Source: Parcubacteria group bacterium Gr01-1014_20
Lineage (GTDB): Bacteria > Patescibacteriota > Minisyncoccia > UBA6257 > 2-01-FULL-56-20
Direction of reading: 5' to 3'
Assembly: GCA_007376265.1 (NCBI GenBank)
Contig: VMFW01000001.1
Coordinates: 2,455 to 66,454, forward strand
DNA: 64,000 nucleotides
Positions 1-30,633 of this stretch are shown piece after piece. A model generated the notes under the pieces. The model did not search any database, had not been told where the DNA came from, and saw nothing but the letters and a program-made list of their open reading frames with translations. Positions within the stretch are counted from its first letter, which is position 1. Each line of letters begins with the position of its first letter. A program made the translations under genes and the position numbers.

Positions 1-5
1 TGGCT

Positions 6-1724: not shown

Positions 1725-1734
1725 CGGTATCATC

Positions 1735-2757
1735 ATGAACTACTCATTATTTGAACCACAAATTTTAGTTGACCGTTTCGCGTCTTTGCCGGAGAACATC
1801 AAGAGTTCCTTGAATCACCCGAGCGACGCCGAGATTGTGGAACAAATTTGCCGGAATAATTTTTTGGAGGACGGCGACAAGATTTTAATGGTTCAACAGC
1901 TAACAACCTTGGTTTTGATGGGGTTTCTTTTGCCCGAGGAGCTAGGACGAGAAATTGCCAACAATCTTCACCTGAACCTAAAAGCAGGCCAAGCGATTGC
2001 CGAGGAGATTGATCGGAAAATTTTTACTTCGATTCATGCTGATCTAAAGAGAGTTTATTCGCCTCTCAAAGAAGCGGCGGCCGATGGTCCCGGACCAGTT
2101 ATCCTCGGGGTCACTTCGGCGGAGACGGGATCGGTCACAATGATTCCGGGGGGAATAGCGGCCGAGGCCGAGAAAAAATTAAAGGGAGCTTCGATTCAGG
2201 AAAAGATTGCGATTCTTCGAGAGGCCGCGACGGCAGGATTTGCAAGTCAGATTCCAAACATTGAGGAACACCTCAAGGAAAGCGAATTTAAGCTTTATGG
2301 AGAGCAAAAAACTTATCAGGACATCGCCGACCGAAGCGGACTAAGCCTAAAGACAATGGTGGCGGACAAAAAAACGACCGAGAGTCAAGCTGGGCCGGCG
2401 AGTGAAGTGGTTCAGAAAATTTCGGCCTACTTCAAACGCCTTCCCTCGCCCGGTGAGCTGGATTCTTTTTTTGGCGACTCATCTTTGACAAAACTCCTGC
2501 CCTTTGGACTAGACGCAACCGCACTCAAAGAAGTTCAGCTCGAGGTGGTGCGCGGAGTGACTTCGGGTTTTTCGCCGGAGGTGATGGCTAACTTTTTTGC
2601 TCAGCTTGTCAAAAGGGGGCGGCTTGAGAACTTTACTGCGGTGGCTCGCGGAGCAGGACTAAAGGAGTCCGACTTCGCGCCTGACAATTTACGATGGCTT
2701 ACAAACCAAGCGGCTGCGCCGCTTGGGATTGGTCGCCAAACTTTTGGTTTAGCTTAA
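1735..2757 (+). CDS. Hypothetical protein whose N-terminal ~100 aa are paralogous to the next ORF
   Basis: Shared motifs with ORF 2761: ...L(V/I)L(M/G)FL(L/R)PE(E/D)... and ...KIF(T/S)(S/P)(I/L)... then ...R(V/A)YxPL. Tightly packed in the same operon. Confidence 0.5.
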   Translation: MNYSLFEPQILVDRFASLPENIKSSLNHPSDAEIVEQICRNNFLEDGDKILMVQQLTTLVLMGFLLPEELGREIANNLHLNLKAGQAIAEEIDRKIFTSIHADLKRVYSPLKEAAADGPGPVILGVTSAETGSVTMIPGGIAAEAEKKLKGASIQEKIAILREAATAGFASQIPNIEEHLKESEFKLYGEQKTYQDIADRSGLSLKTMVADKKTTESQAGPASEVVQKISAYFKRLPSPGELDSFFGDSSLTKLLPFGLDATALKEVQLEVVRGVTSGFSPEVMANFFAQLVKRGRLENFTAVARGAGLKESDFAPDNLRWLTNQAAAPLGIGRQTFGLA

Positions 2758-2760
2758 CAA

Positions 2761-4146
2761 ATGACAATCACAAAAGAACAGGCTCAAACTCGATTTAAAA
2801 CCCTAACGCCTCTTTTGAAATCGGCACTTTTTTCGGTTCAAACCGCGGAGTCGATCGCAAGGGTGGCCGAACAAAACACCCTGCCAAAAGAAAAATCGAC
2901 CCAGATGGCGGAGGTGGCGGGGCTCGTAATACTAGGATTTCTACGACCGGAGGATGCGGCCCCAGAAATTCAATTGCGACTTGGTGTCCCCGCTCAATCG
3001 GCTAAGAGCATATCGGATTCACTGAGCAGTAAGATTTTTTCTCCTCTCAAGATTGAGATTGACCGAGCTTACCAACCGCTTGCCGGAGGCGACAAAAAAC
3101 CGACTTTTTCAACGGGTTCAACGTCAAAGCCAAGTATTGTGGAGGAGATAAAACAGCTTGAAAAATCTGGCGAAGAACTGGTGGGGGTTTTGAAAAGAAT
3201 GGAGAGTCCGGTTAAACCAGCTCAACCCCCGAGTTTTCCCGCAAGTTCGGGAATGGTGAAGACCCCGGCCGCACCCTTCATTCCGCCTCGGCCGTCAGCG
3301 GTCCCACTCCCTCCCTCTATTGAACTCAAAACAACTCCACCCCCACCCGTCCATGGACCAGTAATCCTCCACCGGGAATCGGAGGCTAACCCACTCGCAT
3401 CTGGCTTGGGTTTTAAGCTCGATATCCCCTCGGGAAAATTTTCGGATCGAGGCGTTACGCCCGAATCTACAGGGAAGATGGCGAGGTTAGAGGTTGGGGG
3501 AATGCAAAAATCGCCTGCCAATGCCACGGCTAGGACAGGCGTGGCGGGAGCGGGGAAAACCTTAAACTACGGCGGAAGTTTTGACCAAAATCCGAGACCA
3601 ACGGTGCCACCGCCACTCCCCATCAGGCCCACAGAGGAACCGTTTTCGAAGTCGGCTTTTGGGGGTTTGCCGCCCGTCATGCCTAAACCCTCTGTCTTGC
3701 CGCAAAGCCCTCAAGTGAACCTTCCGAACCCACCTCGACCCCAGCCACCTCGTCCCGAACAGGCGCCCCCCAACTTACCACCCCTGCCCGACAAAAAATA
3801 TCAAACTATGCCCAGGATAGAGAACAAACCCTCGCCCTTCGGCTGGATAAAATCTCTTTTTGGAAATAAGCAGCGACCCGTTCCTCCCGAAGTTAAGGTG
3901 GTGAACTTGAGCGCGGATAGTCGGCCAACCACCCCAAAAATAGAACTGCCCCAGCCCCAAAAACAAGGGCCGCCGCCAATACCCGCTTCTCCTCGTCCCC
4001 CGACCCCCCCCTTGCCCCCACCGCCAACCCCCGGCCCGAGGAGTAGCTCTCCGACAGTTGACATAAAACTTAAGGCGCCAGCTCCAACCCCGAACCAGAC
4101 CGAAGAAGTGATTGATTTGAGTTCGCTTACGAAGATAAGGAAGTAG
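2761..4146 (+). CDS. Hypothetical protein with a paralogous N-domain and a very proline-rich C-terminal ~250 aa (PPxP repeats)
   Basis: ATG start 4 nt after the previous stop. Long ORF whose proline codons create spurious antisense ORFs. Confidence 0.55.
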   Translation: MTITKEQAQTRFKTLTPLLKSALFSVQTAESIARVAEQNTLPKEKSTQMAEVAGLVILGFLRPEDAAPEIQLRLGVPAQSAKSISDSLSSKIFSPLKIEIDRAYQPLAGGDKKPTFSTGSTSKPSIVEEIKQLEKSGEELVGVLKRMESPVKPAQPPSFPASSGMVKTPAAPFIPPRPSAVPLPPSIELKTTPPPPVHGPVILHRESEANPLASGLGFKLDIPSGKFSDRGVTPESTGKMARLEVGGMQKSPANATARTGVAGAGKTLNYGGSFDQNPRPTVPPPLPIRPTEEPFSKSAFGGLPPVMPKPSVLPQSPQVNLPNPPRPQPPRPEQAPPNLPPLPDKKYQTMPRIENKPSPFGWIKSLFGNKQRPVPPEVKVVNLSADSRPTTPKIELPQPQKQGPPPIPASPRPPTPPLPPPPTPGPRSSSPTVDIKLKAPAPTPNQTEEVIDLSSLTKIRK

Positions 4147-4161
4147 TGGTATATTTTTTCT

Positions 4162-4671
4162 ATGCAGTTTCAGGTTCCTCAATTTATTGAAACGGAGGAT
4201 AAAATTGTTGGCCCGCTATCACTTCGGCAATTTATTTATATTGCGGTGGCGGGAGCGCTTTGCTTTATCTTGTTTTTCGCCCTTAAAACTTGGCTTTGGT
4301 TTATTTTTACAGTCTTGCTCGCGGCGATATCCTTTTCTTTAGCTTTTTTGAAGGTGAATGGACAACCCTTAGTAAGGGTGATTATGGCTGGAGCAAGATT
4401 TCTATGGAAGCCGCAAACTTTTGTTTGGCAGCCGGAACGGAAGACCCCTACGAGAGGGACTGACATGCAACCAGAAAAACCAGCTTTTTCGCTTCAAGAC
4501 ATCATGGCGGGGATGGCTCTTAGAAGCACGTGGCAGAAACTACAGACTGGCAGTCGGAAGTCACCAGCAGAAGAGGTGAAGCCGATTACTCAGAAAATAA
4601 AAGAAAGGTATCAAATTTTCGAGAAAATCACCGGCGAGCGCCAGGCAGCCAGGCGGGTAGATTACCGATAG
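4162..4671 (+). CDS. Small two-helix membrane protein, PrgI/VirB3-like candidate
   Basis: 169 aa with two adjacent TM helices near the N-terminus, positioned immediately upstream of VirB4 as in Gram-positive T4SS loci. Confidence 0.4.
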   Translation: MQFQVPQFIETEDKIVGPLSLRQFIYIAVAGALCFILFFALKTWLWFIFTVLLAAISFSLAFLKVNGQPLVRVIMAGARFLWKPQTFVWQPERKTPTRGTDMQPEKPAFSLQDIMAGMALRSTWQKLQTGSRKSPAEEVKPITQKIKERYQIFEKITGERQAARRVDYR

Positions 4672-4742
4672 CTGGGCATGGGTGAGTGTTTTTTTAAATA
4701 GAGAAACTTTGGGTTTCTCGATTTTGCTTTATAATAATTGGG

Positions 4743-5465
4743 ATGGCCTTAAACAAGCAATTATCAAATACGCAGGACCTGGTGGCGATTGAGGAGATTC
4801 ATGACAACACGGTTATCTTAAAAAGCGGGGCAATGCGACAAGTGCTTATGGTGGGCGGCATGAACACGGCTCTTAAATCGGAGGAGGAGCTGAATTTGAT
4901 TACGACGTCTTATCAGAATTTTCTGAACAGCCTCGATTTCTCGATTCAGATCATCGTTCACTCACGAAAGGTGAATATAGAAAAGTATCTTTCGGGCCTA
5001 GAGGAAAGGCGGCGGTTGGAACAGTCGGCTATTCTGCAAAGTCAGATTTCAGAGTACAAGGAGTTTATCGCTGGCTTTGTTCGAGAAAACGACATTATGG
5101 AGAAGACCTTTTTAGTGGTGGTGCCGTTTAGCCCGAGTGGCCTCGCCGGAGTAACGTCGGCTTCGGGAGTTGCGAAACTGTTTCCTTTCTTCGGTGCGAA
5201 AGGCGATGCGAAAGAGGTGAAGGTCAAAGAGGGGATGGAAAAGGAGGCGAGTTTCAAAGAGAGTTTGGGTCAGTTAAATCAAAGAGTTAACCAGATTGTC
5301 GAGGGCTTGCGAGCGATTGATCTAGACGCGGCAGTTCTAGGCGACGAGGAGCTGATTGAGCTTTTTTATAACTTCTACAATCCTGAAACAGTTGAGCGGG
5401 GAAACCTAAATGTCCCAGTCGAAAAAAACGAAGGCGTTGAAGGTGATGAGGTGGAGAACAAATAA
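4743..5465 (+). CDS. VirB4-family N-terminal domain encoded as a separate ORF
   Basis: Motif ...DNTVILKSGAMRQVLMVGGMNTALKSEEE... resembles the VirB4/TrbE N-terminus. TAA stop lies 2 nt before the ATG of the ATPase ORF, which is in a different frame. Confidence 0.6.
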   Translation: MALNKQLSNTQDLVAIEEIHDNTVILKSGAMRQVLMVGGMNTALKSEEELNLITTSYQNFLNSLDFSIQIIVHSRKVNIEKYLSGLEERRRLEQSAILQSQISEYKEFIAGFVRENDIMEKTFLVVVPFSPSGLAGVTSASGVAKLFPFFGAKGDAKEVKVKEGMEKEASFKESLGQLNQRVNQIVEGLRAIDLDAAVLGDEELIELFYNFYNPETVERGNLNVPVEKNEGVEGDEVENK

Positions 5466-5467
5466 TC

Positions 5468-7183
5468 ATGCCAGGAATCAATTTTAAAGAGACAAAAAAG
5501 ATAATCGCTCCAGCCGGAGTTCAGGTTGAGTCGAACTACCTGAAAATTGGAGATAAGTTTGTTAAAACTTTCTTTATATTTTCCTATCCGAGATATCTTT
5601 CGACAGGTTGGTTCGAGCCACTCATAAACTTGCCAAATATTTTTGATATTTCGATTTTTATTAACCCGGTAGACACCGGGATGGCACTCAAAAAACTCCG
5701 AAAGAAGGCTGCTCAAATCGAGTCGCAGATCAGCGACCAGCAGGAAAAGGGACTGGTGAGGGATCCCCTACTCGAGACGGCATTTCAGGATGTGGAGAGC
5801 TTAAGAGACGCTCTCCAACAAGCGCAAGAAAGGCTTTTTGAGATTGGGGTTTACGTTTCGATTTATGCCGACGATCTGGAGGCCTTGGCTAAACTTGAAA
5901 GTCGAATCGACTCTTTAATGGAAGCCAAACTTATATACATCAAGCCCGCGCTTTTCCAGCAGATTGAGGGGCTGTCTTCAATTTTGCCTCTCGCAAACGA
6001 TGAGGTGGATGTGACGACCCCGATGAACTCGGCGCCGATCTCTTCTTTTTTCCCGTTCGTTTCGGAGGACCTAAACTCCAGCCAGGGCATTATGTACGGC
6101 ATTAACCGTCATAACAACAACCTGATTATTTTTGATCGTTTCTCGCTCGAGAATGCAAATCAGGTGGTTTTTGCCAAATCTGGTTCTGGAAAATCCTATG
6201 CCACTAAGCTCGAGATAATTCGCTACTTGATGATGGGGGTGGATGTTCTCGTAATTGATCCGGAAAATGAATACAAAAAACTCTGTGAAGCGTTTGGGGG
6301 AAGTTTCTTCAATATATCTCTCTCGTCTCACGAACATATTAATCCTTTTGATGTGCCGGTTGTTCCAGAAGGAGAAACGCCAACGGATGTTCTCCGCTCT
6401 CACATAGTTAACCTAGCTGGGTTATTGAAGCTAATGCTTGGAAACATTAGCGTGGAGGAAGACGCGCTCTTGGATCGAGCAATCACTGAAACTTACGCCT
6501 CAAGAGAGATCGTGCCCGGAGAAGATTTCTCCGGAGCCCAACCACCGCTGCTTGAAGACTTGGAAACTGTGCTTCGGAACCTCGAAGGAGGGCGGGGAAT
6601 AGCCGAGCGGCTTTACAAATTTACGAAGGGAAGTTTCGCTGGGTTTGTGAATCAGCCCACCAATATTGATATTGGTAATCGCTTGATTGTTTTTTCTATC
6701 CGCGACCTTGAAGACGAACTTAGGCCGATTGCGATGTACATAATTCTTAACTTCATTTGGAATTTAACTCGGGCGCAACTTAAGAAGAGGTTGCTAATTA
6801 TAGATGAGGCTTGGTGGATGATGAAATATGAAGATAGCGCTACATTTCTTTTTGGGTTGGTGAAGCGGGCGAGAAAATATTACTTAGGGGTTTCCACGAT
6901 CACTCAAGACGTCGAGGATTTCTTAAGGTCCCCTTACGGGCGGCCAATTATTACTAACTCTTCCATTCAGCTACTACTCAAGCAGGCGCCGGCGACGATT
7001 GATATCGTGGCTAAGGCTTTTGGGCTTACTGAAGCCGAAAAAAATATGCTTCTTTCGGCGGAGGTGGGGACGGGGCTTTTCTTCGCGGGCCGGAAACACG
7101 TGGCTATCCAGATTATCGCTTCTTTCTTTGAAGACCAACTAGTGACAACCAACCCCCAGCAACTCCTAGAGGAAAAAGCTTGA
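5468..7183 (+). CDS. virB4: VirB4/TrbE/PrgJ-family conjugation-type ATPase (C-terminal ATPase portion)
   Basis: Walker A AKSGSGKSYATK, Walker B LLIIDEAWWMM, and a YPRYLSTGWFEPLINLPNIFDIS segment typical of Gram-positive VirB4. SD GAGGTGG lies upstream within the previous ORF. Confidence 0.85.
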   Translation: MPGINFKETKKIIAPAGVQVESNYLKIGDKFVKTFFIFSYPRYLSTGWFEPLINLPNIFDISIFINPVDTGMALKKLRKKAAQIESQISDQQEKGLVRDPLLETAFQDVESLRDALQQAQERLFEIGVYVSIYADDLEALAKLESRIDSLMEAKLIYIKPALFQQIEGLSSILPLANDEVDVTTPMNSAPISSFFPFVSEDLNSSQGIMYGINRHNNNLIIFDRFSLENANQVVFAKSGSGKSYATKLEIIRYLMMGVDVLVIDPENEYKKLCEAFGGSFFNISLSSHEHINPFDVPVVPEGETPTDVLRSHIVNLAGLLKLMLGNISVEEDALLDRAITETYASREIVPGEDFSGAQPPLLEDLETVLRNLEGGRGIAERLYKFTKGSFAGFVNQPTNIDIGNRLIVFSIRDLEDELRPIAMYIILNFIWNLTRAQLKKRLLIIDEAWWMMKYEDSATFLFGLVKRARKYYLGVSTITQDVEDFLRSPYGRPIITNSSIQLLLKQAPATIDIVAKAFGLTEAEKNMLLSAEVGTGLFFAGRKHVAIQIIASFFEDQLVTTNPQQLLEEKA

Positions 7184-7220
7184 GTGTGATCGGGAGCTTC
7201 AAGGTGGTAGAATAATATAT

Positions 7221-7784
7221 ATGGAAGACGAGCGTGATCATGAACCACTAATATCTCTGGTTGAGATTTTGATCATTGCCCCCTACATACTGGTAATCGA
7301 TATTATCGGAATACTTTTGGCGTTTTTGGCGTTGGATGATTTTTTCATTTTGGACATTTTGATGTTGCCGGTACTAGGATACCTCTGGTTTAAGGGGGTG
7401 CCGCTTACGAGATATGTTTCTTCGGCTATTGGGGAGGCGATACCGTGGATAGGAGATTTGCCGCTGTATTCGGTTGGTTTCATTTTAACGATTGTTGCGG
7501 ACAGAAACCCGAAGGTGGGGGCGGCCCTTGGAGCGGCCACGGGTTCAACGGCACTTGCCAAGGGGGCGGGAGGAGTCGCCAAGGGCGTGCAGGCGGAAAA
7601 AGGAGCGGTGGCTAAAGCTAAGGACTCGCTTCCAAAGAGGTCTCCGGCGACCCAACAGGCAACCGGACTGGAGGCCGATAGACCGCTTAGGGGACTAAAA
7701 GATACGATGGAGAAGGTTCCAGAATCAAATGTGGTTGATCTGCGCGGAGAGGAAGAGGACGATGAATACGGGATGGTGGCTTAG
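7221..7784 (+). CDS. Small membrane protein with a Gly/Ala/Lys-rich tail and acidic C-terminus
   Basis: Two or three TM helices. Its KGAGGVAKG-type motif resembles the one in the VirB6-like protein. Confidence 0.5.
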   Translation: MEDERDHEPLISLVEILIIAPYILVIDIIGILLAFLALDDFFILDILMLPVLGYLWFKGVPLTRYVSSAIGEAIPWIGDLPLYSVGFILTIVADRNPKVGAALGAATGSTALAKGAGGVAKGVQAEKGAVAKAKDSLPKRSPATQQATGLEADRPLRGLKDTMEKVPESNVVDLRGEEEDDEYGMVA

Positions 7785-7836
7785 GTTCTCGGTGGATCGC
7801 TGTTGATGAATATATGTGTGTTAGTTGTTATAATTG

Positions 7837-8520
7837 ATGGGAATGAATAAAAAAGGAGCTCTTTTTATAGTACTGTTTTTTTTCTTAGCAGCCTTCGCTT
7901 ACGTCGCTCGTGGCCAGACTTTTTCTCCTTCGGCAATTCTCACATGGCGGGCGGCGACTTTTTCACCGGCCAAATACCAAGGCAAAAACCTACCAACAGC
8001 CGGTGCTCAAATAAATTTGTCGGTCGAAGTGATTAATAAGGGGGTTTTGCTTAATTTAGCGAAGCAGAACATTCTGTGGTATTTGGGTGACGAACTGATC
8101 GCAAGTGGCGAGGGAGTGCGGGAGGCGATTTTTAGACCAACGAGAGACGGCCTTCAAGACGTGAGGGTGGAGGTTTGGTCACAATTCGGAAAGGTTTCGG
8201 CGGGAACAAAAATTCCGGTTGTGTGGCCGGAGGCAGTTGTCTCGGCGCCGTTTCCCGGGGGGAATTTTTCTAAGACAAACCTGACGGTTAGAGGATATCC
8301 GTATTTTTTTAATGTGGCTAATTTGGCTGATCTCAACTTTGTCTGGAAGGTAAATTCTAAAGAAGTCGGCGCGGCGGGTGACGTTGATGTCTTAAACCTA
8401 AACGTTGATCCGAAGGCGGCCCAGGGCTTTAGGTTGAATGTGGGTTTGAGTATCACAAAAAAGGCCGGGGACAAACAAGGATCGAGCAAGGAGGTGATTC
8501 TCACCTACAAAAAAATTTGA
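7837..8520 (+). CDS. Secreted protein with a signal peptide, function unknown
   Basis: N-terminus MGMNKKGALFIVLFFFLAAFAYVARG. An extended -10 element TGtTATAAT lies upstream at about 7815-7823. Confidence 0.5.
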   Translation: MGMNKKGALFIVLFFFLAAFAYVARGQTFSPSAILTWRAATFSPAKYQGKNLPTAGAQINLSVEVINKGVLLNLAKQNILWYLGDELIASGEGVREAIFRPTRDGLQDVRVEVWSQFGKVSAGTKIPVVWPEAVVSAPFPGGNFSKTNLTVRGYPYFFNVANLADLNFVWKVNSKEVGAAGDVDVLNLNVDPKAAQGFRLNVGLSITKKAGDKQGSSKEVILTYKKI

Positions 8521-9083
8521 TGGCGCGGCTAGTAGTTCATAAAACGATGGTTTTGATCTTTCTCTCCGTTGGTCTAGTGGTCTTAGGTTTGGGGTCAACC
8601 TTGGCGGCAGAGACAAACATCAGCGTGGGTATTCCGGGGCCTAACGATACGGTGGCCGAGGGGAGCGCCAACCCGGCTGGGGTGGTGGCGAATGCCTATC
8701 AGTTCGCGCTCATGATCGGGGGGTTAATGGCTTTTGTGATGATAGTTTACGGCGCCGTAAAATACACGGCGGCAGGCGGAAACAGTTCGGTTCAGAGCGA
8801 TGCCAAAGACCGGATCACGCAGGCGCTTTTGGGGTTAGCGCTTTTAGTTGGGGCGGCCATAATTCTTTCGACGATAAGCCCCCGCTTTAAATTAGAAAAT
8901 GGTGTTTTTACACTCCCGACGATTCCTTCTGGGCAGCAACTAGAAGAAGAAACGAACGCGCTTTTTAATCCTTTTCAAAATAACCCGCCGGGACAGTGTG
9001 GTCCGGTTGGTAGTCCCTGTACGTGCCCAGGCGGAACGAGTGGTAGTTGCGCCGCCGACGGAAGGTGTACGCCCTGTACATAA
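8520..9083 (+). CDS. VirB2/TrbC-like pilin candidate with a Cys-rich C-terminal extension
   Basis: Long signal peptide, then two hydrophobic helices (ANAYQFALMIGGLMAFVMIVYGAV and ALLGLALLVGAAIILSTI) separated by a charged loop. The tail has 6 Cys in CGPVGSPCTCPGGTSGSCAADGRCTPCT. Confidence 0.45.
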   Translation: MARLVVHKTMVLIFLSVGLVVLGLGSTLAAETNISVGIPGPNDTVAEGSANPAGVVANAYQFALMIGGLMAFVMIVYGAVKYTAAGGNSSVQSDAKDRITQALLGLALLVGAAIILSTISPRFKLENGVFTLPTIPSGQQLEEETNALFNPFQNNPPGQCGPVGSPCTCPGGTSGSCAADGRCTPCT

Positions 9084-9088
9084 ATAAT

Positions 9089-10309
9089 ATGAAAAAATAC
9101 ATATTTTTGTTGGTGGCAATAGCCGGAGTAGTACTTCTTTTTGTGGGGGGATATTTCTTGAGGCAGGGCTTAGACCGAAGTCCCGAGGCTCCGGGTGATA
9201 CTTCGGAGGGCGGAAGCTTGCCAGGAGCTGGAGACCAAAATCTCCCCCCAGGTGATCAAGGGGGGCAACCGGCTGGTCCTCTGACTAACCCTAAAGACTT
9301 GGTTCAGGTTTTGGCCGGACCGGTTTTGGATTATTTTGTTTCGTCTGGGGGGAACATAGTTTACATCCAACCAGACGGACAGATTTTTGAAAGTAAAGGC
9401 GGGCAGGCGGCAGTTTTGAGCGGCACTAAGATAGAAAACTTGGCTCGTGCCGGTTTTTCATATAACGGCGAGAAGTTATTGGTTGTTTTTGGTCAATTGG
9501 GGCAGCTTCAGGCAAGTGTGTTTGATTTGAAGACGAAGGCCTGGCAGCCACTCACCATTTCTCCGGAGACGGCTGCCTGGTCGCCGACTGACGAAAAGCT
9601 AGCGCTCCTTTCGAGGACAGCGGGGGTGGCGAGCGTTTCAACCCTTGATTTGGCTAACGCCAAATCGAAGCCGATTGAGCTTTTTAAGATCAGGGCTTGG
9701 GATGTCGATCTCGGGTGGCCAGTTAAGAACAAGCTGCTCCTTAAAGAAAGAACGGGTTCTCGATCTGGGGGTTCGGTCTGGATCTACGACTTGGATAGAA
9801 AGACGATTAGCTCACTTTTGGCTCACAAAACTGGACTGCGATCAACATGGAATAGCGCGCTTACACTAGGATTGGTTTTCGGAATCAATGAGGCAAGTGA
9901 GGGCTCACTATCACTCGTTGACGGAGCTGGTGTCACTACTCGGGGGTTGGGCTTCAAGACCAGACCAGACAAGTGCGCCTTTAGCGAAAGAACGGAAACG
10001 GTCACGAGCACGGTAGGAGCTACTGGAACTCCGGCGAAGAAAACGACAACAAGGATTGTTAACCTACTCACCTGCGGAGTACCCAGAAATTTTTCTTCGC
10101 TTACGGATCTGGGTTTTCTGGACGATTACGACAAAGAAGGCCTCTTCACAGTTGATAGTGTTTACCAGATAAACCTGGAGGGTGGCTCTTCACAGGCTCT
10201 TTTTGACGATCGATCGAAAAGTTTAGATGTGAGTCAGGTGAAAGTATTTTCCAAGAAGTTTTACTTCGTAGACAGATACAGCGGGGGTCTTTATTCGGTG
10301 GCGTTGTAG
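9089..10309 (+). CDS. Membrane-anchored or secreted protein, possibly a beta-propeller/TolB-like fold
   Basis: ATG at 9089 gives MKKYIFLLVAIAGVVLLFVGG as an N-terminal anchor. Last gene before a strong terminator. Confidence 0.45.
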   Translation: MKKYIFLLVAIAGVVLLFVGGYFLRQGLDRSPEAPGDTSEGGSLPGAGDQNLPPGDQGGQPAGPLTNPKDLVQVLAGPVLDYFVSSGGNIVYIQPDGQIFESKGGQAAVLSGTKIENLARAGFSYNGEKLLVVFGQLGQLQASVFDLKTKAWQPLTISPETAAWSPTDEKLALLSRTAGVASVSTLDLANAKSKPIELFKIRAWDVDLGWPVKNKLLLKERTGSRSGGSVWIYDLDRKTISSLLAHKTGLRSTWNSALTLGLVFGINEASEGSLSLVDGAGVTTRGLGFKTRPDKCAFSERTETVTSTVGATGTPAKKTTTRIVNLLTCGVPRNFSSLTDLGFLDDYDKEGLFTVDSVYQINLEGGSSQALFDDRSKSLDVSQVKVFSKKFYFVDRYSGGLYSVAL

Positions 10310-12152: not shown

Positions 12153-13517
12153 ATGGATTTAAATCAACTTTGGCAGTTAGCTTTAGAAGAGATGCGGGTT
12201 CAGCTTTCTAGGGCTAGTTTTGCGACCTGGCTCAAAAGTAGCCGCTTAGTTGATAGGAAAGAGGGGGTTTTTTACATCAGCCTTCCAAATGACTTTACAA
12301 AGCAGTGGATAGAAGAAAAATATCAGAAAAATATACTGGGAATTATCAGAAACCTTGATAGCTCAGCGAGGAAGCTCGAGTTTATCGTGGCGGGACACGA
12401 GCCAAAGATCATATCCAAACGAGACTTAGAGATTGATCTTAATCGGTTTGACAATCAGATAGACTTGGACTTCAAGGTAGACCCAGAAACCAACCTTAAT
12501 CCTCGATACACACTGAAGTCTTTCATTGTGGGATCTTCGAATGAGCTCGCGTATGCGGCGGCCTCGGCCATTGCCCAAGAGGTGGGCAAAAAATACAATC
12601 CTTTCTTTATCTATGGAGGGGTGGGCTTAGGCAAGACTCATTTAATCCAGGCGCTCGGAAATGAGATTGTGGCTATTTATAAGGGCAAAGTTAGGCCGAA
12701 GTATGTTTCTTCTGAAAAATTCACCAGCGATGTGGTTTGGGCGATCCGGAACAAGCGGATGGAGGATATTAAGAAGAAGTACCGGGACGTGGACGTTTTA
12801 ATAATTGATGATATTCAGTTCATTGGAGGTAAAGAGAAGACAGAGGAGGAATTTTTCCACACCTTCAACGCCCTCTACGAGAACAACAAGCAGATAATCA
12901 TTTCTTCCGACCGGCCACCTCAATCCCTCCCCACCCTTCAGGAGAGGCTTCGATCTCGGTTTGAGGGGGGACTAACGGCGGATATTGGTTACCCGGAATA
13001 CGAAATGCGGGTGGCAATCATTAACAACCGCCTCCAGGCTGGCGGAAGACAATTAGATGAGAAGGTGATCGATCTCGTGGCCAACTCAATAAAGAGAAAC
13101 ATAAGGGAACTAGAGGGGGTTTTGAATAAGATTTTATTTTACCAGGACAGAAAGGGGGTTCCGATTAGTGAGAAGATGGCGATCGAGATAGTCGAGAAGT
13201 CTACCCAGAACTTCTCTAAGCGAATAAGTGACGAACACATACTAAAAACGGTTGCCTCATTTTATAACGTTCAACTTGCCGATTTAGTGGGTCGTTCCCG
13301 GAAGAAGGAGATGGTGGAACCGCGACAGGTGACGATGTATTTGCTTCGGGATATCCTCCGGATGTCCTATCCATACATTGGGGAGAAGTTGGGGCGAGAT
13401 CACACAACAGTGATACACTCTTTTGAGAAGATAAACCACGAGATAAATAAGAATTCTCCCTTTAACCAGAAGATATTATTAATAAAAGAGGCTTTGTATA
13501 ACGGAAATAAACAGTAA
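12153..13517 (+). CDS. dnaA: Chromosomal replication initiator DnaA
   Basis: AAA+ Walker A GGVGLGKTHL, box VII, and a C-terminal DNA-binding domain. Confidence 0.95.
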   Translation: MDLNQLWQLALEEMRVQLSRASFATWLKSSRLVDRKEGVFYISLPNDFTKQWIEEKYQKNILGIIRNLDSSARKLEFIVAGHEPKIISKRDLEIDLNRFDNQIDLDFKVDPETNLNPRYTLKSFIVGSSNELAYAAASAIAQEVGKKYNPFFIYGGVGLGKTHLIQALGNEIVAIYKGKVRPKYVSSEKFTSDVVWAIRNKRMEDIKKKYRDVDVLIIDDIQFIGGKEKTEEEFFHTFNALYENNKQIIISSDRPPQSLPTLQERLRSRFEGGLTADIGYPEYEMRVAIINNRLQAGGRQLDEKVIDLVANSIKRNIRELEGVLNKILFYQDRKGVPISEKMAIEIVEKSTQNFSKRISDEHILKTVASFYNVQLADLVGRSRKKEMVEPRQVTMYLLRDILRMSYPYIGEKLGRDHTTVIHSFEKINHEINKNSPFNQKILLIKEALYNGNKQ

Positions 13518-13663
13518 CCATTATTAAACAGGTTAATAACATGTTTTTTTACTTTTTGTTTTCAATTAAATAAAATTTCTCTTTGTTTGTGGGCGCCAAA
13601 AACCTTTTTATTTTTTTCTCCACAAGTTAACACCCTTAATAAAAATAATAATAATATTAATTT
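13518..13663. promoter_or_regulatory. Candidate oriC/DUE region in the dnaA-dnaN intergenic spacer
   Basis: Very AT-rich run aataaaaataataataatattaattta, plus a near-consensus DnaA box ttctccaca. Confidence 0.35.
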
Positions 13664-14776
13664 ATGGAAGTAGTAGTTATTAGAAATAATTTAAAGGATG
13701 GTTTGGGAATTATTCAGGGCGCGGTTGGAGATAATTTAAAGTTACCGGTTTTAAAGTACGCCCTTTTTGAGGCGGAGGCAGATCGGATTCGGTTTACAGC
13801 AACCAATCTTGAGATTGCAATGACAAGTATTGTTTCCGGAAAAGTAATTGAGAAAGGGAGGGTGGGTATTCCAGTTCTAACACTTCTAAGTCTAATAAAT
13901 AATATTCAAACCGAGAGAATAAGCCTTCAGGGTAAAGGGGGCCAAGTTAATTTAAAAACCGACAACTATGAGGCTATGATTCAAACAATTTCCCCCGAGG
14001 AGTTTCCCACCATACCAAAGCTCAAAGAAAAAAAGCGATTTTTTGAGATTGAGGGGGGGGTTCTCCGAGATGCGTTAACTCAAGTGGTGGTGGCGACGCA
14101 GTTTTCTGAATTAAGGCCGGAGCTTAATAGTGTCCTCTTTGATTTTTCCATCGATAGTTTGAGGTTGGCGGCTACAGACAGCTTTAGGTTGGCCGAGAAA
14201 ACTATCCCCAACAGCCAATTTAAGACAAACCAAGAGGATAGCGTGAGACTACTAATCCCCCTCCGAACCTGTCATGAACTCTTGAGAGTCATTAAAGAAG
14301 ACCCCGTGCGCATATATTTTGAGAGCAACCAGATCCTTTTTGAGGCACAGTCGTTTGAGTTCATATCGAGGTTGATTGAGGGAAACTTTCCCGACTATAC
14401 CCAGGTTTTGCCCAAAAAATTCGGATCGGAGCTTGTTTTAAACAAAGAAAAATTTATAAACGCCGTGAAGCTGGCCGGGGTGTTTGGGGGTCAGAATAAC
14501 GAGGTTAGATTGAAAGTTCTAGACGGGGGGAAGGCGGTGGAACTAAAGTCGTCAAACCAAGATGTGGGTGAGAATCGTTATGTGCTTCCGGCCAAAGCGT
14601 CTCGCGAGACCGGGGAGGTAGTTTTCAATGGCAAGTACCTCTTGGATGCTCTCCGGGTTTTGAGAACCGAAGAGGTTTTTTTGGGGGTTAATGAGGAAGA
14701 AAGAAGAGCCACCCTCCTCAAATCACCAAACGAGAGTTCTTATTTCTATATTTTAATGCCCATTCTTAAGGCCTAG
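13664..14776 (+). CDS. dnaN: DNA polymerase III beta sliding clamp
   Basis: 370 aa, directly after dnaA. Confidence 0.9.
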   Translation: MEVVVIRNNLKDGLGIIQGAVGDNLKLPVLKYALFEAEADRIRFTATNLEIAMTSIVSGKVIEKGRVGIPVLTLLSLINNIQTERISLQGKGGQVNLKTDNYEAMIQTISPEEFPTIPKLKEKKRFFEIEGGVLRDALTQVVVATQFSELRPELNSVLFDFSIDSLRLAATDSFRLAEKTIPNSQFKTNQEDSVRLLIPLRTCHELLRVIKEDPVRIYFESNQILFEAQSFEFISRLIEGNFPDYTQVLPKKFGSELVLNKEKFINAVKLAGVFGGQNNEVRLKVLDGGKAVELKSSNQDVGENRYVLPAKASRETGEVVFNGKYLLDALRVLRTEEVFLGVNEEERRATLLKSPNESSYFYILMPILKA

Positions 14777-17546: not shown

Positions 17547-18032
17547 TTATTTGTCAACCGGGGATAACCGCCGGGCCGAAGTAGCTAGGATCGCTAAGGC
17601 AAGAGCGTCCGTCACGTCGTCAATAACCCGTAACCCCGGCTCACCCAAGGTTAGCCTAACCATTTTGGCTACTGCTTTTTTATCAGCGAGGCCGTAGCCG
17701 GTAATGCCAAGCTTCATCTCATTAGGAGAGAACTCCCTCACTAATAAGTTGTTTTCGGCCGCACAGAGCAAAAGAACTCCCCTGCTTTCAGAGACCGCAA
17801 GGGCAGTTTTCTGGTTTTTTGAGAAATAAAGTTTCTCTATACCAAGAACTTCAGGCTCGAACTTTTTTATGATTGCTTCGAGTTCGTCTCTAATTTCCTT
17901 GTAGGCGATTGCTTTCGAGGAAGAGGTTATCTGAAGGAGGCCGGCTTTAATCATGGTCGTTTTCCCAAGGGACTGTTCGACCAAACCATACCCGACTCGT
18001 TTAAATCCCGGATCGATTCCTAGGGCAATCAT
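17547..18032 (-). CDS. ruvC: Holliday junction resolvase RuvC
   Basis: MIALGIDPGFKRVGYGLVE N-terminus with catalytic Asp. Confidence 0.9.
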   Translation of the reverse strand: MIALGIDPGFKRVGYGLVEQSLGKTTMIKAGLLQITSSSKAIAYKEIRDELEAIIKKFEPEVLGIEKLYFSKNQKTALAVSESRGVLLLCAAENNLLVREFSPNEMKLGITGYGLADKKAVAKMVRLTLGEPGLRVIDDVTDALALAILATSARRLSPVDK

Positions 18033-18583
18033 TTGGTGACGGTAAGATTTGGGTTTGAAAAGACCGATTGGATGTCGCTGTGTTTTTCGATGGCAGTGAC
18101 GAGTTTTTCAAGATCTAACCTGTCACCTTCTCTTAGTTCGTGATTGAACTTGGGACGCCACTCAGGGTCGTTTCCATCCTCGTTTTTATCAAAGGTCCAG
18201 AGCACGCTTCCTGGATTGGCCCACTTACCCTTGTTGTCACCGATGATTTTTTTAACTTCGGCAACAGTTCGGTTGCGGTTGTCGGTGATTGCTTCGATCA
18301 GGATAGGGGCGCCACCTGGCCCGTAGGCCTCGAGGAGGAGCTCTTCTAGATTTTGATTTTCTTCCGAGGCGCGCTTAATAGCTCGATCGATGTTTTCGTT
18401 CGGGACGCTAAAGTTTTTTGCTTTTTGAACGGCGGTTTTTAAGCGAGGATTAAAATTAGGATTTACGTCTGACTTGGCGGCGATAGAGATGGCGTTTAGG
18501 AGTTTCGAAAAAAGCTGTCCGCGTTTTTGATCAACAATATTTTTTCGATGTTTTATTTGTGTCCATTTATTGTGCCCGGCCAT
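18029..18583 (-). CDS. yebC: YebC/PmpR-family transcriptional regulator (short form)
   Basis: MAGHNKWTQIKHRK N-terminus; 4-nt overlap with ruvC. Confidence 0.85.
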   Translation of the reverse strand: MAGHNKWTQIKHRKNIVDQKRGQLFSKLLNAISIAAKSDVNPNFNPRLKTAVQKAKNFSVPNENIDRAIKRASEENQNLEELLLEAYGPGGAPILIEAITDNRNRTVAEVKKIIGDNKGKWANPGSVLWTFDKNEDGNDPEWRPKFNHELREGDRLDLEKLVTAIEKHSDIQSVFSNPNLTVTK

Positions 18584-18650: not shown

Positions 18651-19088
18651 TTAGTACCAAGCCGAAATATTCGGGTAGTGATTTATAACACAATTTTTAT
18701 CGATATTTGTCAATATTGGCTTTGGTTTCTTTTCACCGGTTAATTTTATAGCGATAAGATCAATCTGCCAACCGAGCGGTGAGTTGGTTAGGTGCTTGTG
18801 GCGGTTGAAAAAGTACTCACAAGTTTTTTCAAGTTTTTTGAGTTTAGAGCGACTCAGGTTGTCTTCTGGGCTAAGGTCGTTGCCTGATTCATTGCCGCTT
18901 GGTTCTTGCCGAATTGTTTTTACTTCAAAGAAGATCACTTTTCCCTCTTTTGATTTTGCAATAATATCAATTTCTCCCCACGGCCGACTAAAGTTTTTTG
19001 TGATTATTTTATACCCAAGCCTGGTTACAAATCTTTCAGCTAAAACTTCTCCGTCTTTGCCGATTTGTAGATGTTTAGCGCTAAACAT
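18651..19088 (-). CDS. yraN: YraN/UPF0102-family endonuclease-like protein
   Basis: GExDIIA...VIFFEVKT motif. Its start codon lies inside the first palindromic repeat. Confidence 0.7.
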   Translation of the reverse strand: MFSAKHLQIGKDGEVLAERFVTRLGYKIITKNFSRPWGEIDIIAKSKEGKVIFFEVKTIRQEPSGNESGNDLSPEDNLSRSKLKKLEKTCEYFFNRHKHLTNSPLGWQIDLIAIKLTGEKKPKPILTNIDKNCVINHYPNISAWY

Positions 19089-19339
19089 AGGTAACTCAAT
19101 ATTAGCAAAAAAATTAGCTTTTTTAAGCTTATCAGCTTAGGTCGGTTTTTCTCAGTGTTTAGCGCTAAACACTGTTTTTAGTGATTTTCGGCTTTTTCTA
19201 GGTTTTACAAGGCTACTGGGTTACTGGCGATATCTGAATGTTTAGCGCTAAACATTATTTTACGAGCAATTTAGTTTTATCTAGGTTTTACTTGACTATT
19301 GGGTTCTTCGGCCAGTATTAATGTTTAGCGCTAAACATT
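19071..19339. repeat. Four copies of a perfect palindrome (core TGTTTAGCGCTAAACA, 18-22 bp) spaced about 82 bp apart; copies 2-4 sit in about 82-bp tandem units
   Basis: Copies at 19071-19088, 19153-19174, 19237-19256 and 19320-19339, read directly from the sequence. They lie in the divergent region between the yraN-yebC-ruvC operon (minus) and ruvA (plus). Confidence 0.9.
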
Positions 19340-19379
19340 GTTTTTGCTCTATGGGTGCTTTTGGTTATAATTGCTAGAT

Positions 19380-19964
19380 ATGATTGAGTTTGTTCGTGGG
19401 AAGCTTGTTTCGAGGACAGACGATAGTCTTGTTGTGGATTTGGGTGGTTTTGGGATGAGAATATTTGTTTCGAAGTTTAGTCTAACGCACTTTTCTGCGG
19501 TTGTTCCCGGACAAGAAATAATGGTTTTTTGCCAACTTCGTCTTCGTGAGGATGGAGCCGATCTTTATGGGTTTTATAATCAGGACGAACTTCGAATTTT
19601 TAGACTTCTAAATACGATTTCTGGAGTTGGCCCAAAATCAGCTATTTCAATATTAAATATTGCAAGCCTTGAAGAATTAGTTTCAGCAATAAGTGAAAAA
19701 AGAGCTGATTTGCTAACTAGCGCGTCCGGGGTTGGTCGGAAAACCGCGGAGAGGATAATCCTCGAGTTGAGCGGTAGGGTTGTCGCGCCTAGGGCAGACG
19801 AGGTCGTGAAGAAGATGGAGATTGATCAAGACATAGTCGAAACCCTGGTTGGTCTAGGTTATCGAAAAGATGAGGCCCAAAGAGTTATAAGTAAGATCGA
19901 CGCAAGTGTTCAGGATATAAATTCTCGGCTGAAGTTGGCTCTCAAGATTTTAGCGAAAAGATAA
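19380..19964 (+). CDS. ruvA: Holliday junction DNA helicase subunit RuvA
   Basis: MIEFVRGKL N-terminus and HhH motifs. The ATG at 19380 is preferred over the TTG at 19371. Confidence 0.9.
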   Translation: MIEFVRGKLVSRTDDSLVVDLGGFGMRIFVSKFSLTHFSAVVPGQEIMVFCQLRLREDGADLYGFYNQDELRIFRLLNTISGVGPKSAISILNIASLEELVSAISEKRADLLTSASGVGRKTAERIILELSGRVVAPRADEVVKKMEIDQDIVETLVGLGYRKDEAQRVISKIDASVQDINSRLKLALKILAKR

Positions 19965-30402: not shown

Positions 30403-30633
30403 ATGAAAAGATGCGGGGGAATGGTTGAACTTTCTAGCTTTCGGGAGCTGCTAGCGAGTTTGATTGACGCCAAGTTTAGCTCTCGAAACGCGTTTTGTGA
30501 TGTGATGAGGCTAGATCGAGGGCAGTTAAGCCGTGTTTTGGCTGGAACAAGCAGCTTTTCGGTCGAGGCCTTAGAGAGAGTTTTCAGCTCTTTGGGTTAC
30601 TCTGTGGTTTTGGTGCCGAAAAAGGAACCTTAG
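30403..30633 (+). CDS. Small XRE/Cro-type helix-turn-helix DNA-binding protein
   Basis: 76 aa with the HTH pattern SRNAFCDVMRLDRGQLSRVLAG. Confidence 0.6.
   Translation: MKRCGGMVELSSFRELLASLIDAKFSSRNAFCDVMRLDRGQLSRVLAGTSSFSVEALERVFSSLGYSVVLVPKKEP

What the first reader, a model, noticed from the sequence alone, without database searches (positions are those of the whole stretch)
19071..19339. Four evenly spaced perfect palindromes (TGTTTAGCGCTAAACA core) between the divergent DNA-repair operons yraN-yebC-ruvC and ruvA
There are no-loop perfect palindromes of 18-22 bp at 19071, 19153, 19237 and 19320. Copies 2-4 are embedded in ~82-bp tandem units (ctaggttttac...ggcga/gccag tat..aATGTTTAGCGCTAAACATT). 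The first overlaps the yraN start codon. The fourth directly abuts a TTGACT-N18-TATTAA promoter 40 nt upstream of ruvA. Perfect dyad symmetry without a loop, plus ~8-helical-turn phasing, is typical of a cooperative dimeric repressor array, possibly an SOS-like operator set. It is not a hairpin terminator or CRISPR array. The sequence does not match known LexA box classes, so the regulator is unknown; candidates in the window are YebC/PmpR or the small XRE protein at 30403.
Basis: seen in the sequence. Interest (0 to 1): 0.7.

Follow-up and report, generated by a model that had tools for sequence, protein, structure and literature searches.

The report
Variant parS centromere array beside yraN
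The four identical palindromes are most likely this tiny-genome bacterium's chromosome "centromere" (a parS array where the segregation protein ParB loads), in a lineage-specific spelling, sitting on the promoter of a recombination nuclease gene rather than being a DNA-damage (SOS) operator.

Summary
TGTTTAGCGCTAAACA occurs exactly four times (19072, 19156, 19239, 19322; spacing 84/83/83) and nowhere else in the 64 kb.

The interpretation needs changing. Across at least 30 Patescibacteria (CPR) species, the same 16-mer in 1-7 copies always lies directly 5' of yraN (UPF0102). The gene on the other side varies: ruvA in some species, a dksA-like gene plus comM in others.

In 80 CPR yraN loci chosen without regard to the motif, the same intergenic position often holds arrays of the canonical centromere TGTTTCACGTGAAACA, with up to 10 copies. 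Other lineages carry other core variants (CGCGCG, GCCGGC, TACGTA). Some arrays mix AGC and CAC half-sites. The common frame is TGTTTnnCGnnAAACA.

The window's array is therefore a core-variant parS cluster, about 5.6 kb from dnaA. It is probably bound by ParB, which would also sit on the yraN start and next to the ruvA promoter.

Several points remain unshown. No parB gene was found in the 78 kb I could read. ParB binding is untested. GC skew does not confirm that the origin is nearby. A dedicated non-ParB repressor is the main rival.

I found no published description. Verdict: new variant of a known kind, moderately high interest.

The parts
19072..19087 (.). parS-like site 1 (18-bp palindrome 19071-19088). 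It contains the yraN start codon (ATG at 19088-19086 on the minus strand), so YraN begins MFSAKH.
19156..19171 (.). parS-like site 2 (22-bp palindrome 19153-19174)
19239..19254 (.). parS-like site 3 (20-bp palindrome 19237-19256)
19322..19337 (.). parS-like site 4 (20-bp palindrome 19320-19339). It ends 6 bp upstream of the conserved -35-like hexamer of ruvA.
19156..19345 (.). 83-bp tandem repeat that carries sites 2-4 (array expansion by tandem duplication). The spacers hold a second conserved motif, CTAGGTTTTAC...TGGGTT (19198-19222, 19281-19305).
18651..19088 (-). yraN (UPF0102, PD-(D/E)xK nuclease). This is the gene that the array accompanies in all related genomes.
17547..18583 (-). yebC (18029-18583) and ruvC (17547-18032), downstream of yraN in the same orientation
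19380..19964 (+). ruvA, the divergent neighbour in this gene order only
19344..19371 (+). Likely ruvA promoter, TTGCTC-N16-TATAAT, with the ATG 8 nt after the -10 (near-leaderless). The block is conserved in L065.
   Evidence: inference from sequence
19099..19104 (-). Candidate yraN -10 (TAATAT on the minus strand), 10 nt before the ATG. Conserved in L065.
   Evidence: inference
12153..14776 (+). dnaA (12153-13517) and dnaN (13664-14776). The array lies about 5.6 kb from the end of dnaA.

Best explanation
The four palindromes are a lineage-specific variant of the bacterial chromosomal centromere parS, arranged as a tight tandem array.

Proposed mechanism:
1. Dimers of the HTH protein ParB (Spo0J family) recognise each 16-bp site.
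2. They read the invariant arms TGTTT/AAACA and the central CG, and tolerate or prefer AG/CT at positions 6-7 and 10-11 instead of the canonical CA/TG.
3. ParB loads there as a CTP-dependent clamp and builds the partition complex near dnaA.
4. Site 1 covers the yraN start codon and 5' end, and site 4 abuts the -35 of ruvA. The same complex would therefore damp transcription of the nicking nuclease gene yraN (with yebC-ruvC) and of ruvA.

What is shown:
- The sites, their uniqueness in the window, and their conservation.
- Their strict linkage to yraN across CPR.
- Their positional equivalence to canonical parS arrays in sister lineages.
- Hybrid half-sites within single arrays.

What is inferred:
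- That ParB is the binder.
- That it loads and slides here.
- That it represses the flanking genes.
For: 1.. In 80 CPR yraN loci fetched with a YraN alignment, so blind to the motif, 18 have two or more TGTTTnnCGnnAAACA sites just upstream of yraN. In 10 of these 18 the dominant core is canonical CACGTG (tally): L112 x7, L120 x9-10, L133 x7, L134 and L140 x5-6, L148 x4. Others carry CGCGCG (L125 x8), GCCGnn (L096 x10, L121 x5), TACGTA (L105) or AGCGCT (L095 x4). Many of the remaining loci have single GTTTCACGTGAAAC or TGTTCCACGTGGAACA sites.

2.. These arrays occupy the same gene orders as the AGCGCT arrays: comM<dksA-like<array>yraN>nusA, or array>yraN>yebC>ruvC near dnaA.

3.. Single arrays mix half-sites. 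L072 has TGTTTCACGCTAAACA and TGTTTAGCGTGAAACA, and L060 has TGTTTAGCGTGAAACA. One binder must therefore accept both the AGC and the CAC half.

4.. The exact 16-mer is kept in genomes of 26-60% GC, in 1-7 copies, at one intergenic locus per genome.

5.. The array is about 5.6 kb from dnaA in the window. It is also near dnaA/dnaN in L004, L049, L085, L134 and L140.

6.. No canonical parS (up to 2 mismatches) exists in the 64 kb.

7.. A ParB_N+HTH_ParB gene on archaeal mobile-element-like contigs (L040, and L178 at 65% aa identity) carries this very 16-mer inside a 22-bp perfect palindrome. That palindrome is identical between the two while the flanking codons differ. This is an independent link between the ParB family and this sequence.

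8. Literature. Canonical parS is TGTTNCACGTGAAACA. Natural core variants exist: Deinococcus cgcGtg, and B. cenocepacia chrII gTTTATGCGCATAAAc. ParB bound at intergenic parS represses adjacent promoters in P. aeruginosa (PMC7022226; PMC5521831). In S. pneumoniae ParB spreading from parS modulates the competence operon (PMC4488948).
Against: - No parB or parA was found in the 78 kb readable around the array (window plus L175 and L177), nor within about 4 kb of any of roughly 120 CPR yraN loci. Whether these genomes encode ParB could not be tested.
- Four of 16 positions differ from canonical parS. From memory of Jalal et al. 2020, these are positions that ParB/Noc use for specificity.
- The absolute linkage to yraN is not a known property of parS and hints at a gene-specific regulatory role.
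- GC skew stays positive over all 78 kb with no inversion, so origin proximity rests on dnaA synteny alone.
- The same 16-mer lies beside marR-family genes in two other phyla, so the sequence is not exclusive to ParB-family proteins.
Confidence: 0.68

Rival explanations
1. The array is an operator for a dedicated non-ParB transcription factor (for example MarR, XRE or another dimeric HTH protein). This factor tightly represses the nicking nuclease gene yraN and the divergent recombination genes (ruvA here, comM elsewhere), forming a competence/recombination switch. The resemblance to parS would be convergent or historical.
For: - The array is always at the yraN 5' end. The proximal site overlaps the ATG or lies 15-60 nt upstream of it.
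- The partners across the array are functionally related recombination genes. YraN works with ComM in transformation D-loop processing (bioRxiv 10.1101/2024.02.06.579203).
- The identical 16-mer occurs in pairs next to marR genes in Agrococcus and a Chloroflexota MAG. It is also conserved upstream of a cytochrome c gene in 8 Sphingomonas species.
- No parB was seen nearby.
Against: - In sister lineages the same position carries up to 10 copies of the exact canonical parS. A coincidental 16/16 identity with the universal ParB site is very unlikely.
- No transcription-factor gene is syntenic with the array in any gene order.
- Arrays of 7-11 sites are atypical for local repressors.
- No second target locus exists per genome for the exact site.
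Confidence: 0.2
2. The array is an SOS-like (LexA-type) operator set controlling DNA-repair operons.
For: It is a palindromic array between yraN-yebC-ruvC and ruvA.
Against: - No match to the E. coli, Gram-positive, alpha-proteobacterial, Verrucomicrobia or cyanobacterial LexA motifs.
- The motif is absent elsewhere in the 64 kb.
- In most relatives the array is not next to ruv genes at all.
- There is one locus per genome.
- The orthologous arrays are canonical parS.
Confidence: 0.03
3. The array is a non-protein-binding repeat: a cruciform or hairpin, a terminator, a MITE, a CRISPR- or TIGR-like array, or part of oriC.
For: - Copy 2 scores as a terminator-like hairpin followed by a T run.
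- The tandem 83-bp units show that the region is recombinogenic.
Against: - The hairpins are weak, -3.4 to -5.4 kcal/mol, with only copy 2 reaching -9.4 to -9.8.
- The 16-mer is invariant while the spacers diverge freely even between close relatives.
- There is no Rfam hit.
- Spacers within an array are similar to each other, and no cas or tas gene is present.
- There is no DnaA-box cluster and no GC-skew inversion.
- There is one locus per genome, which argues against a mobile repeat.
Confidence: 0.04

Closest known systems
Chromosomal parS / ParB (Spo0J) centromere, consensus TGTTNCACGTGAAACA
   Same: - A 16-bp perfect palindrome in the same register, with identical arms TGTTT/AAACA and central CG (12 of 16 positions).
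- Multi-copy, one cluster per chromosome, close to dnaA.
- The orthologous position in sister CPR lineages carries the canonical sequence, and hybrid half-sites link the two.
   Different: - The core is AGCGCT instead of CACGTG.
- The sites are packed as a tandem array (83-bp period here, 29-90 bp elsewhere) inside one divergent promoter region.
- The array is invariably fused to the 5' end of yraN.
- parB is not adjacent and was not found.
Variant parS of secondary replicons and other phyla (B. cenocepacia chrII gTTTATGCGCATAAAc; Deinococcus NGTTTcgcGtgaAACN; V. cholerae chrII NTTTACANTGTAAAN; PMC7022226 Table 1)
   Same: They show that ParB-family proteins have diverged to read GTTTA...GCGC...TAAAC-like palindromes and cores other than CACGTG.
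   Different: In Burkholderia and Vibrio these variants serve additional replicons, each with its own ParB. Here the variant appears to replace the canonical site on a single small chromosome.
KorB operators O_B of IncP plasmid RK2 (TTTAGCSGCTAAA, sequence quoted from memory) and other ParB-family silencers
   Same: The half-site TTTAGC is identical. KorB is a ParB-family CTPase that both partitions DNA and represses promoters.
   Different: O_B is a 13-bp site with an odd centre, dispersed on a plasmid. It is not a 16-bp even palindrome in a chromosomal tandem array.
Plasmid centromere arrays such as F sopC (12 tandem 43-bp repeats, each with a 16-bp inverted repeat bound by SopB; from memory)
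   Same: Tandem repeat units, each carrying one ParB-family dyad site, with copy number varying between relatives.
   Different: sopC is plasmid-borne and lies next to its sopAB genes.
ParB-parS acting on neighbouring promoters (P. aeruginosa parS3/parS4, PMC5521831; S. pneumoniae comCDE, PMC4488948)
   Same: Intergenic parS sites next to promoters lead to repression. One documented target is a competence operon.
   Different: In those species the effect is modest and incidental. Here the linkage to one gene (yraN) is conserved across a superphylum.
LexA/SOS boxes
   Same: Palindromic operators upstream of ruv genes occur in some bacteria.
   Different: No sequence match and no regulon-like distribution.

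Membership tests
parS (ParB-binding chromosomal centromere) | 16-bp palindrome matching TGTTNCACGTGAAACA | tested here: inconclusive
   12 of 16 positions match in register (arms and central CG). The core is AGCGCT rather than CACGTG. It fits the frame TGTTTnnCGnnAAACA that is shared with the canonical arrays in relatives.
parS (ParB-binding chromosomal centromere) | Positional and evolutionary continuity with bona fide parS sites | tested here: met
   The same intergenic slot (5' of yraN, same gene orders) holds arrays of exact canonical parS in other CPR lineages. Hybrid AGC/CAC sites occur within single arrays.
parS (ParB-binding chromosomal centromere) | Located in the origin-proximal domain | tested here: inconclusive
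   The array is about 5.6 kb from dnaA-dnaN in the window and in five other loci. However, GC skew shows no inversion over 78 kb. For the comM/nusA gene order the distance to dnaA is unknown.
parS (ParB-binding chromosomal centromere) | A cognate ParB (PF02195 + PF17762) is encoded in the same genome | not testable with these tools
   No ParB or ParA in the 78 kb readable.
parS (ParB-binding chromosomal centromere) | Specific ParB binding and CTP-dependent loading at the site | not testable with these tools
   This needs an experiment. The only indirect support is a ParB-family gene (L040/L178) that carries the identical palindrome internally.
LexA / SOS operator | Match to a known LexA-binding motif class | tested here: not met
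   None of CTGT-N8-ACAG, GAAC-N4-GTTC, GTTC-N7-GTTC, TGTTC-N4-GAACA or the cyanobacterial motif occurs in 18900-19500. The published Patescibacteria LexA motif (Sanchez-Osuna 2017) could not be read.
LexA / SOS operator | Sites distributed upstream of several damage-inducible genes (recA, lexA, uvr) | tested here: not met
   Only one locus in the window. Only the yraN locus per genome among at least 30 species.
Autoregulatory site bound by the adjacent gene product (YraN) | The adjacent protein is a sequence-specific dimeric DNA binder | tested here: not met
   The protein has a UPF0102 domain only, with an intact PD-(D/E)xK motif. L. pneumophila YraN is reported to be monomeric, with relaxed-specificity ssDNA nicking activity.
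MarR-type operator | A marR-family gene adjacent to or syntenic with the sites | tested here: not met
   A marR gene is adjacent in Agrococcus and a Chloroflexota MAG but in none of the CPR loci. No MarR hit among the window ORFs scanned (not all ORFs were scanned).

The most novel reading that the evidence does not exclude
In Patescibacteria the chromosome's centromere is a tandem parS array physically fused to the promoter or start codon of the transformation/recombination nuclease gene yraN, and often faces its helicase partner comM. ParB would then double as the switch that couples expression of a dangerous nicking nuclease to chromosome segregation state. Meanwhile the parS core drifts between lineages (CACGTG, AGCGCT, CGCGCG, GCCGGC, TACGTA), with all copies in a genome changing together. 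That would be a natural series of ParB-parS specificity changes on a primary chromosome.
Probability: 0.35. Interest if true: 0.78.

Novelty: new variant of a known kind. Interest (0 to 1): 0.62.

Why it matters
parS is regarded as one of the most conserved DNA motifs in bacteria, and primary-chromosome variants are rare. This case matters for three reasons.

1. A superphylum-wide series of core variants, each homogenised within its own array, would give a ready-made comparative data set for how ParB specificity evolves. It would extend the ParB/Noc work.
2. It would mark the centromere in thousands of uncultivated CPR genomes.
3. The invariant coupling of the array to yraN, recently shown to be the ComM-partnered D-loop nuclease of natural transformation, suggests an unrecognised link between segregation machinery and control of recombination. 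These organisms are naturally competent and have few transcription factors.

There is also a practical use. The array is a simple landmark for annotating CPR genomes and a candidate tool for plasmid or centromere engineering in Saccharibacteria.

Tried and rejected
- **LexA, CIRCE and other known operator classes.** No match.
- **YraN as its own site-specific binder.** Rejected: it has a single nuclease domain, and it is reported as a monomeric, non-specific nickase.
- **YebC or the 76-aa ORF at 30403 as regulator.** YebC is not syntenic with the array in most genomes. The ORF has no HTH hit.
- **oriC.** No DnaA-box cluster and no skew inversion.
- **RNA element, terminator or cruciform.** Weak hairpins and no Rfam family.
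- **CRISPR- or TIGR-like array.** The spacers are mutually similar and there are no cas or tas genes. The TIGR paper was read and is not relevant.
- **Co-variation of the YraN N-terminus with the site** (MFSAKH versus MFHVKH). Rejected: in L146 and L115 that reading frame hits a stop, and the real start is downstream.
- **Exact hits inside CPR coding regions.** These are FolD 'LFSAKH' codons, a coincidence.
- **Hunt for ParB.**
  - tblastn of Spo0J and Soj against all DNA held found only the archaeal L040.
  - Walking the source contig both ways found none.
  - A Spo0J homologue search returned only Bacillus.
  - Homologues of the L040 ParB were Firmicutes/Noc or Bacteroidota-like, not CPR.
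- **Viral-contig scan for the 16-mer.** Four singletons, uninformative.
- **Literature searches.** Nothing on the motif sequence or on CPR parS/ParB.

Full report
**1. The observation**

The sequence is as described. TGTTTAGCGCTAAACA occurs exactly at 19072, 19156, 19239 and 19322. The perfect palindromes are 18, 22, 20 and 20 bp long, and start-to-start spacing is 84/83/83 bp. With up to three mismatches allowed, the only other match in 64 kb is a 3-mismatch hit at 59096. Chance expectation is 0.22, and no shuffle out of 100 reaches five matches.

Copies 2-4 lie in an 83-bp tandem repeat (TRF; alignment). The flanking genes are confirmed by Pfam:
- UPF0102/yraN (18651-19088, minus strand), followed by yebC and ruvC on the minus strand.
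- ruvA, followed by a Mur-ligase gene, on the plus strand.
- Independent gene calls on an identical contig agree.

The yraN ATG lies inside copy 1.

**2. What the array travels with**

I scanned one genome from each of 185,579 species for the exact 16-mer and got 93 loci. A 16-bp palindrome is expected about 140 times by chance in 596 Gb. Most hits outside one group are indeed singletons in coding sequence.

Clusters of 2-7 copies are almost confined to Patescibacteria/CPR genomes of 26-60% GC. ORF clustering shows that in these genomes the sites always lie immediately 5' of a yraN homologue. There are 20 such multi-copy loci plus about 10 single-copy loci.

The other neighbour varies. Two gene orders recur:
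- mur-ligase<ruvA<array>yraN>yebC>ruvC>PBP>dnaN>dnaA. This is the order in the window and in L004, L049, L065, L085, L081, L023, L030, L019 and L014.
- comM<dksA-like<array>yraN>nusA>H+-PPase>clpP (Pfam; BLAST).

So the array belongs to yraN, not to the ruv genes. Exact hits elsewhere in CPR genomes are FolD codons for LFSAKH. Site spacing in other genomes ranges from 29 to more than 400 bp, so the 8-turn phasing is local.

Between the window and its close relative L065 (PBP 90% identical), the spacers have diverged freely but every 16-mer is intact. That indicates selection on the sites themselves.

**3. What the sites are**

Relaxing positions 6-7 and 10-11 showed that the arrays are larger than the exact matches suggest. 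Half-sites vary: TGTTTAGC, TGTTTGTC, TGTTTCGC, TGTTTGCC and, notably, TGTTTCAC. L072 and L060 contain hybrids such as TGTTTAGCGTGAAACA. The common frame TGTTTnnCGnnAAACA includes the canonical centromere parS, TGTTTCACGTGAAACA (consensus TGTTNCACGTGAAACA; PMC7022226).

To remove ascertainment bias, I fetched 80 CPR yraN loci from metagenomes with a YraN protein alignment and looked upstream.
- 18 loci have two or more sites. In 10 of these the dominant core is the exact canonical CACGTG, with up to ten copies (L112, L120, L133, L134, L140, L148, L110, L107, L101).
- Others are homogeneous for CGCGCG (L125, 8 copies), GCCGnn (L096, L121), TACGTA/TTCGTA (L105, L115), GTCGAC (L098) or AGCGCT (L095).
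- Many of the remaining loci carry a single GTTTCACGTGAAAC, TGTTCCACGTGGAACA or CATATG-core site upstream of yraN.
- The gene orders are the same as for the AGCGCT arrays.

The window's array is therefore the local variant of a parS array that sits 5' of yraN across the superphylum.

Three further facts fit this reading:
- The 64 kb contains no canonical parS, even with two mismatches.
- The array is about 5.6 kb from dnaA-dnaN. Arrays are also near dnaA in L004, L049, L085, L134 and L140.
- One of the non-CPR singletons lies inside a ParB_N+HTH_ParB gene on an archaeal mobile-element-like contig (L040). A 65%-identical homologue (L178) has the same 22-bp palindrome, CATTGTTTAGCGCTAAACAATG, at the same place, while neighbouring codons differ synonymously.

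**4. How it most likely works**

ParB dimers would recognise each site, load as CTP-gated clamps and form the partition complex. This is established knowledge for canonical ParB/parS. That it happens here is inference.

The geometry also makes transcriptional consequences likely.
- Site 1 covers +3 to +19 of a near-leaderless yraN. A TAATAT -10 lies 10 nt before the ATG and is conserved in L065.
- Site 4 ends 6 bp upstream of the conserved TTGCTC-N16-TATAAT block in front of ruvA.
- In other lineages the proximal site lies 15-60 nt upstream of the yraN start.

There are precedents. ParB at intergenic parS3/parS4 represses adjacent promoters in P. aeruginosa (PMC7022226, PMC5521831). ParB spreading from parS modulates comCDE in S. 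pneumoniae (PMC4488948).

YraN has recently been shown to be the nicking nuclease that works with the ComM helicase to resolve transformation D-loops (bioRxiv 10.1101/2024.02.06.579203). The array thus lies between the two partners in many genomes. That could be functional coupling, or it could be retained synteny.

**5. Weak points**

- I could not show that these genomes encode ParB. None lies in the 78 kb readable around the array or within about 4 kb of any yraN locus.
- Searches seeded with Spo0J or with the L040 ParB returned no CPR proteins.
- GC skew is positive over the whole 78 kb with no inversion. Origin proximity therefore rests on dnaA synteny alone.
- The four changed positions are ones that, from my memory of the ParB/Noc specificity work, matter for recognition.
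- The same 16-mer is used elsewhere in other contexts. Pairs lie next to marR genes in Agrococcus and a Chloroflexota MAG. A copy is conserved upstream of a cytochrome c gene in eight Sphingomonas species. Several copies occur in one Planctomycetota MAG.

A dedicated non-ParB repressor of yraN therefore remains the main rival, at about 0.2. I rate it lower for two reasons. It would require a 16/16 coincidence with canonical parS in the sister lineages. And no transcription-factor gene is syntenic with the array.

**6. Other alternatives**

- No LexA class, CIRCE or DnaA-box cluster fits.
- Hairpins are weak, and there is no Rfam match at E<=0.7.
- YraN itself is an unlikely binder.
- An initially attractive idea was that YraN's N-terminus co-varies with the site core. 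It failed on inspection.

**7. Novelty**

Full-text searches found nothing on the motif sequence, on parS or ParB in Patescibacteria, CPR or Saccharibacteria, or on yraN-linked parS. The Patescibacteria LexA paper could not be read.

I classify the feature as a new variant of a known kind. It is a core-variant, tandemly arrayed chromosomal parS, invariably joined to yraN.

**8. Scores**

- Interest: 0.62.
- Confidence in the parS/ParB explanation: 0.68.

Noticed in passing
window 1-10309 (and L175 1-8117 to its left): A type IV secretion-like gene cluster lies directly left of jag-yidC-rnpA | dnaA-dnaN. It includes PrgI, TraC-like, DUF87/VirB4-like ATPase and T4SS_pilin (Pfam on an identical contig), plus several large ORFs with no Pfam hit.
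   Followed up: partly
window 1-64000 plus flanks (L175, L177): GC skew is positive in nearly every 2-kb bin across 78 kb. There is no inversion at dnaA or anywhere else, so the replication origin is not marked by skew near dnaA in this genome.
   Followed up: partly
window 19198-19222 and 19281-19305; also L065, L004, L081, L030, L085, L091: A second conserved motif sits in the spacers between palindromes, but only in the ruvA-type gene order: CTAGGTTTTAC-N2-G-N-CTA-N-TGGGTT, or TAGGTTTTAYCG..TTATCGG in relatives. Its function is unknown (second binding site or promoter remnant).
   Followed up: partly
L040 6746-6761 and L178 1267-1282: A ParB_N+HTH_ParB gene with a C-terminal zinc ribbon, on archaeal (Bathyarchaeia MAG) mobile-element-like contigs, contains the identical 16-mer within a 22-bp perfect palindrome. 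The palindrome lies in the HTH-coding region and is conserved between homologues of 65% identity while flanking codons differ.
   Followed up: yes
L073 2326-2366; L064 4302-4398: Pairs of the same or near-same 16-mer lie next to marR-family genes in an Agrococcus MAG and a Chloroflexota MAG. These are probably MarR operators that happen to share the sequence.
   Followed up: partly
L006, L009, L010, L013, L046, L080, L084, L090: In eight Sphingomonas species (about 70% GC) the AT-rich 16-mer is conserved about 30 nt upstream of a cytochrome c gene. It lies beside a second palindrome, GGTGACGCAGCGTCACC. The regulator is unknown.
   Followed up: no
L063 4533-6866, L007 3424, L056 208: One Planctomycetota MAG (68% GC) carries at least 8 copies on three contigs, most embedded in near-copies of the 26-bp palindrome CATGCTGTTTAGCGCTAAACAGCATG. 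Four of them lie in 112-115-bp tandem repeats. This is unexplained.
   Followed up: no
L012 3455-3781; L017 4279-4614: Seven-site arrays with a strict period of about 52 bp occur in very AT-rich CPR contigs, with no yraN in the flank that was held. One contig ends at the array.
   Followed up: no
L004 1502, L023 5058, L049 6003: A single extra parS-like site lies at the ruvA/mur-ligase junction in three relatives. It is absent in the window, where the two genes are 7 nt apart.
   Followed up: no
L025 2362, L047 2587, L058 2541: The exact 16-mer occurs inside folD in three CPR genomes and encodes the peptide LFSAKH/Q. This is a coding coincidence that would mislead a naive motif scan.
   Followed up: yes
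L097, L099, L108, L116, L118, L123: In several CPR loci a LAGLIDADG-like homing-endonuclease ORF (by eye, not Pfam-checked) lies immediately upstream of yraN, in place of an array.
   Followed up: no
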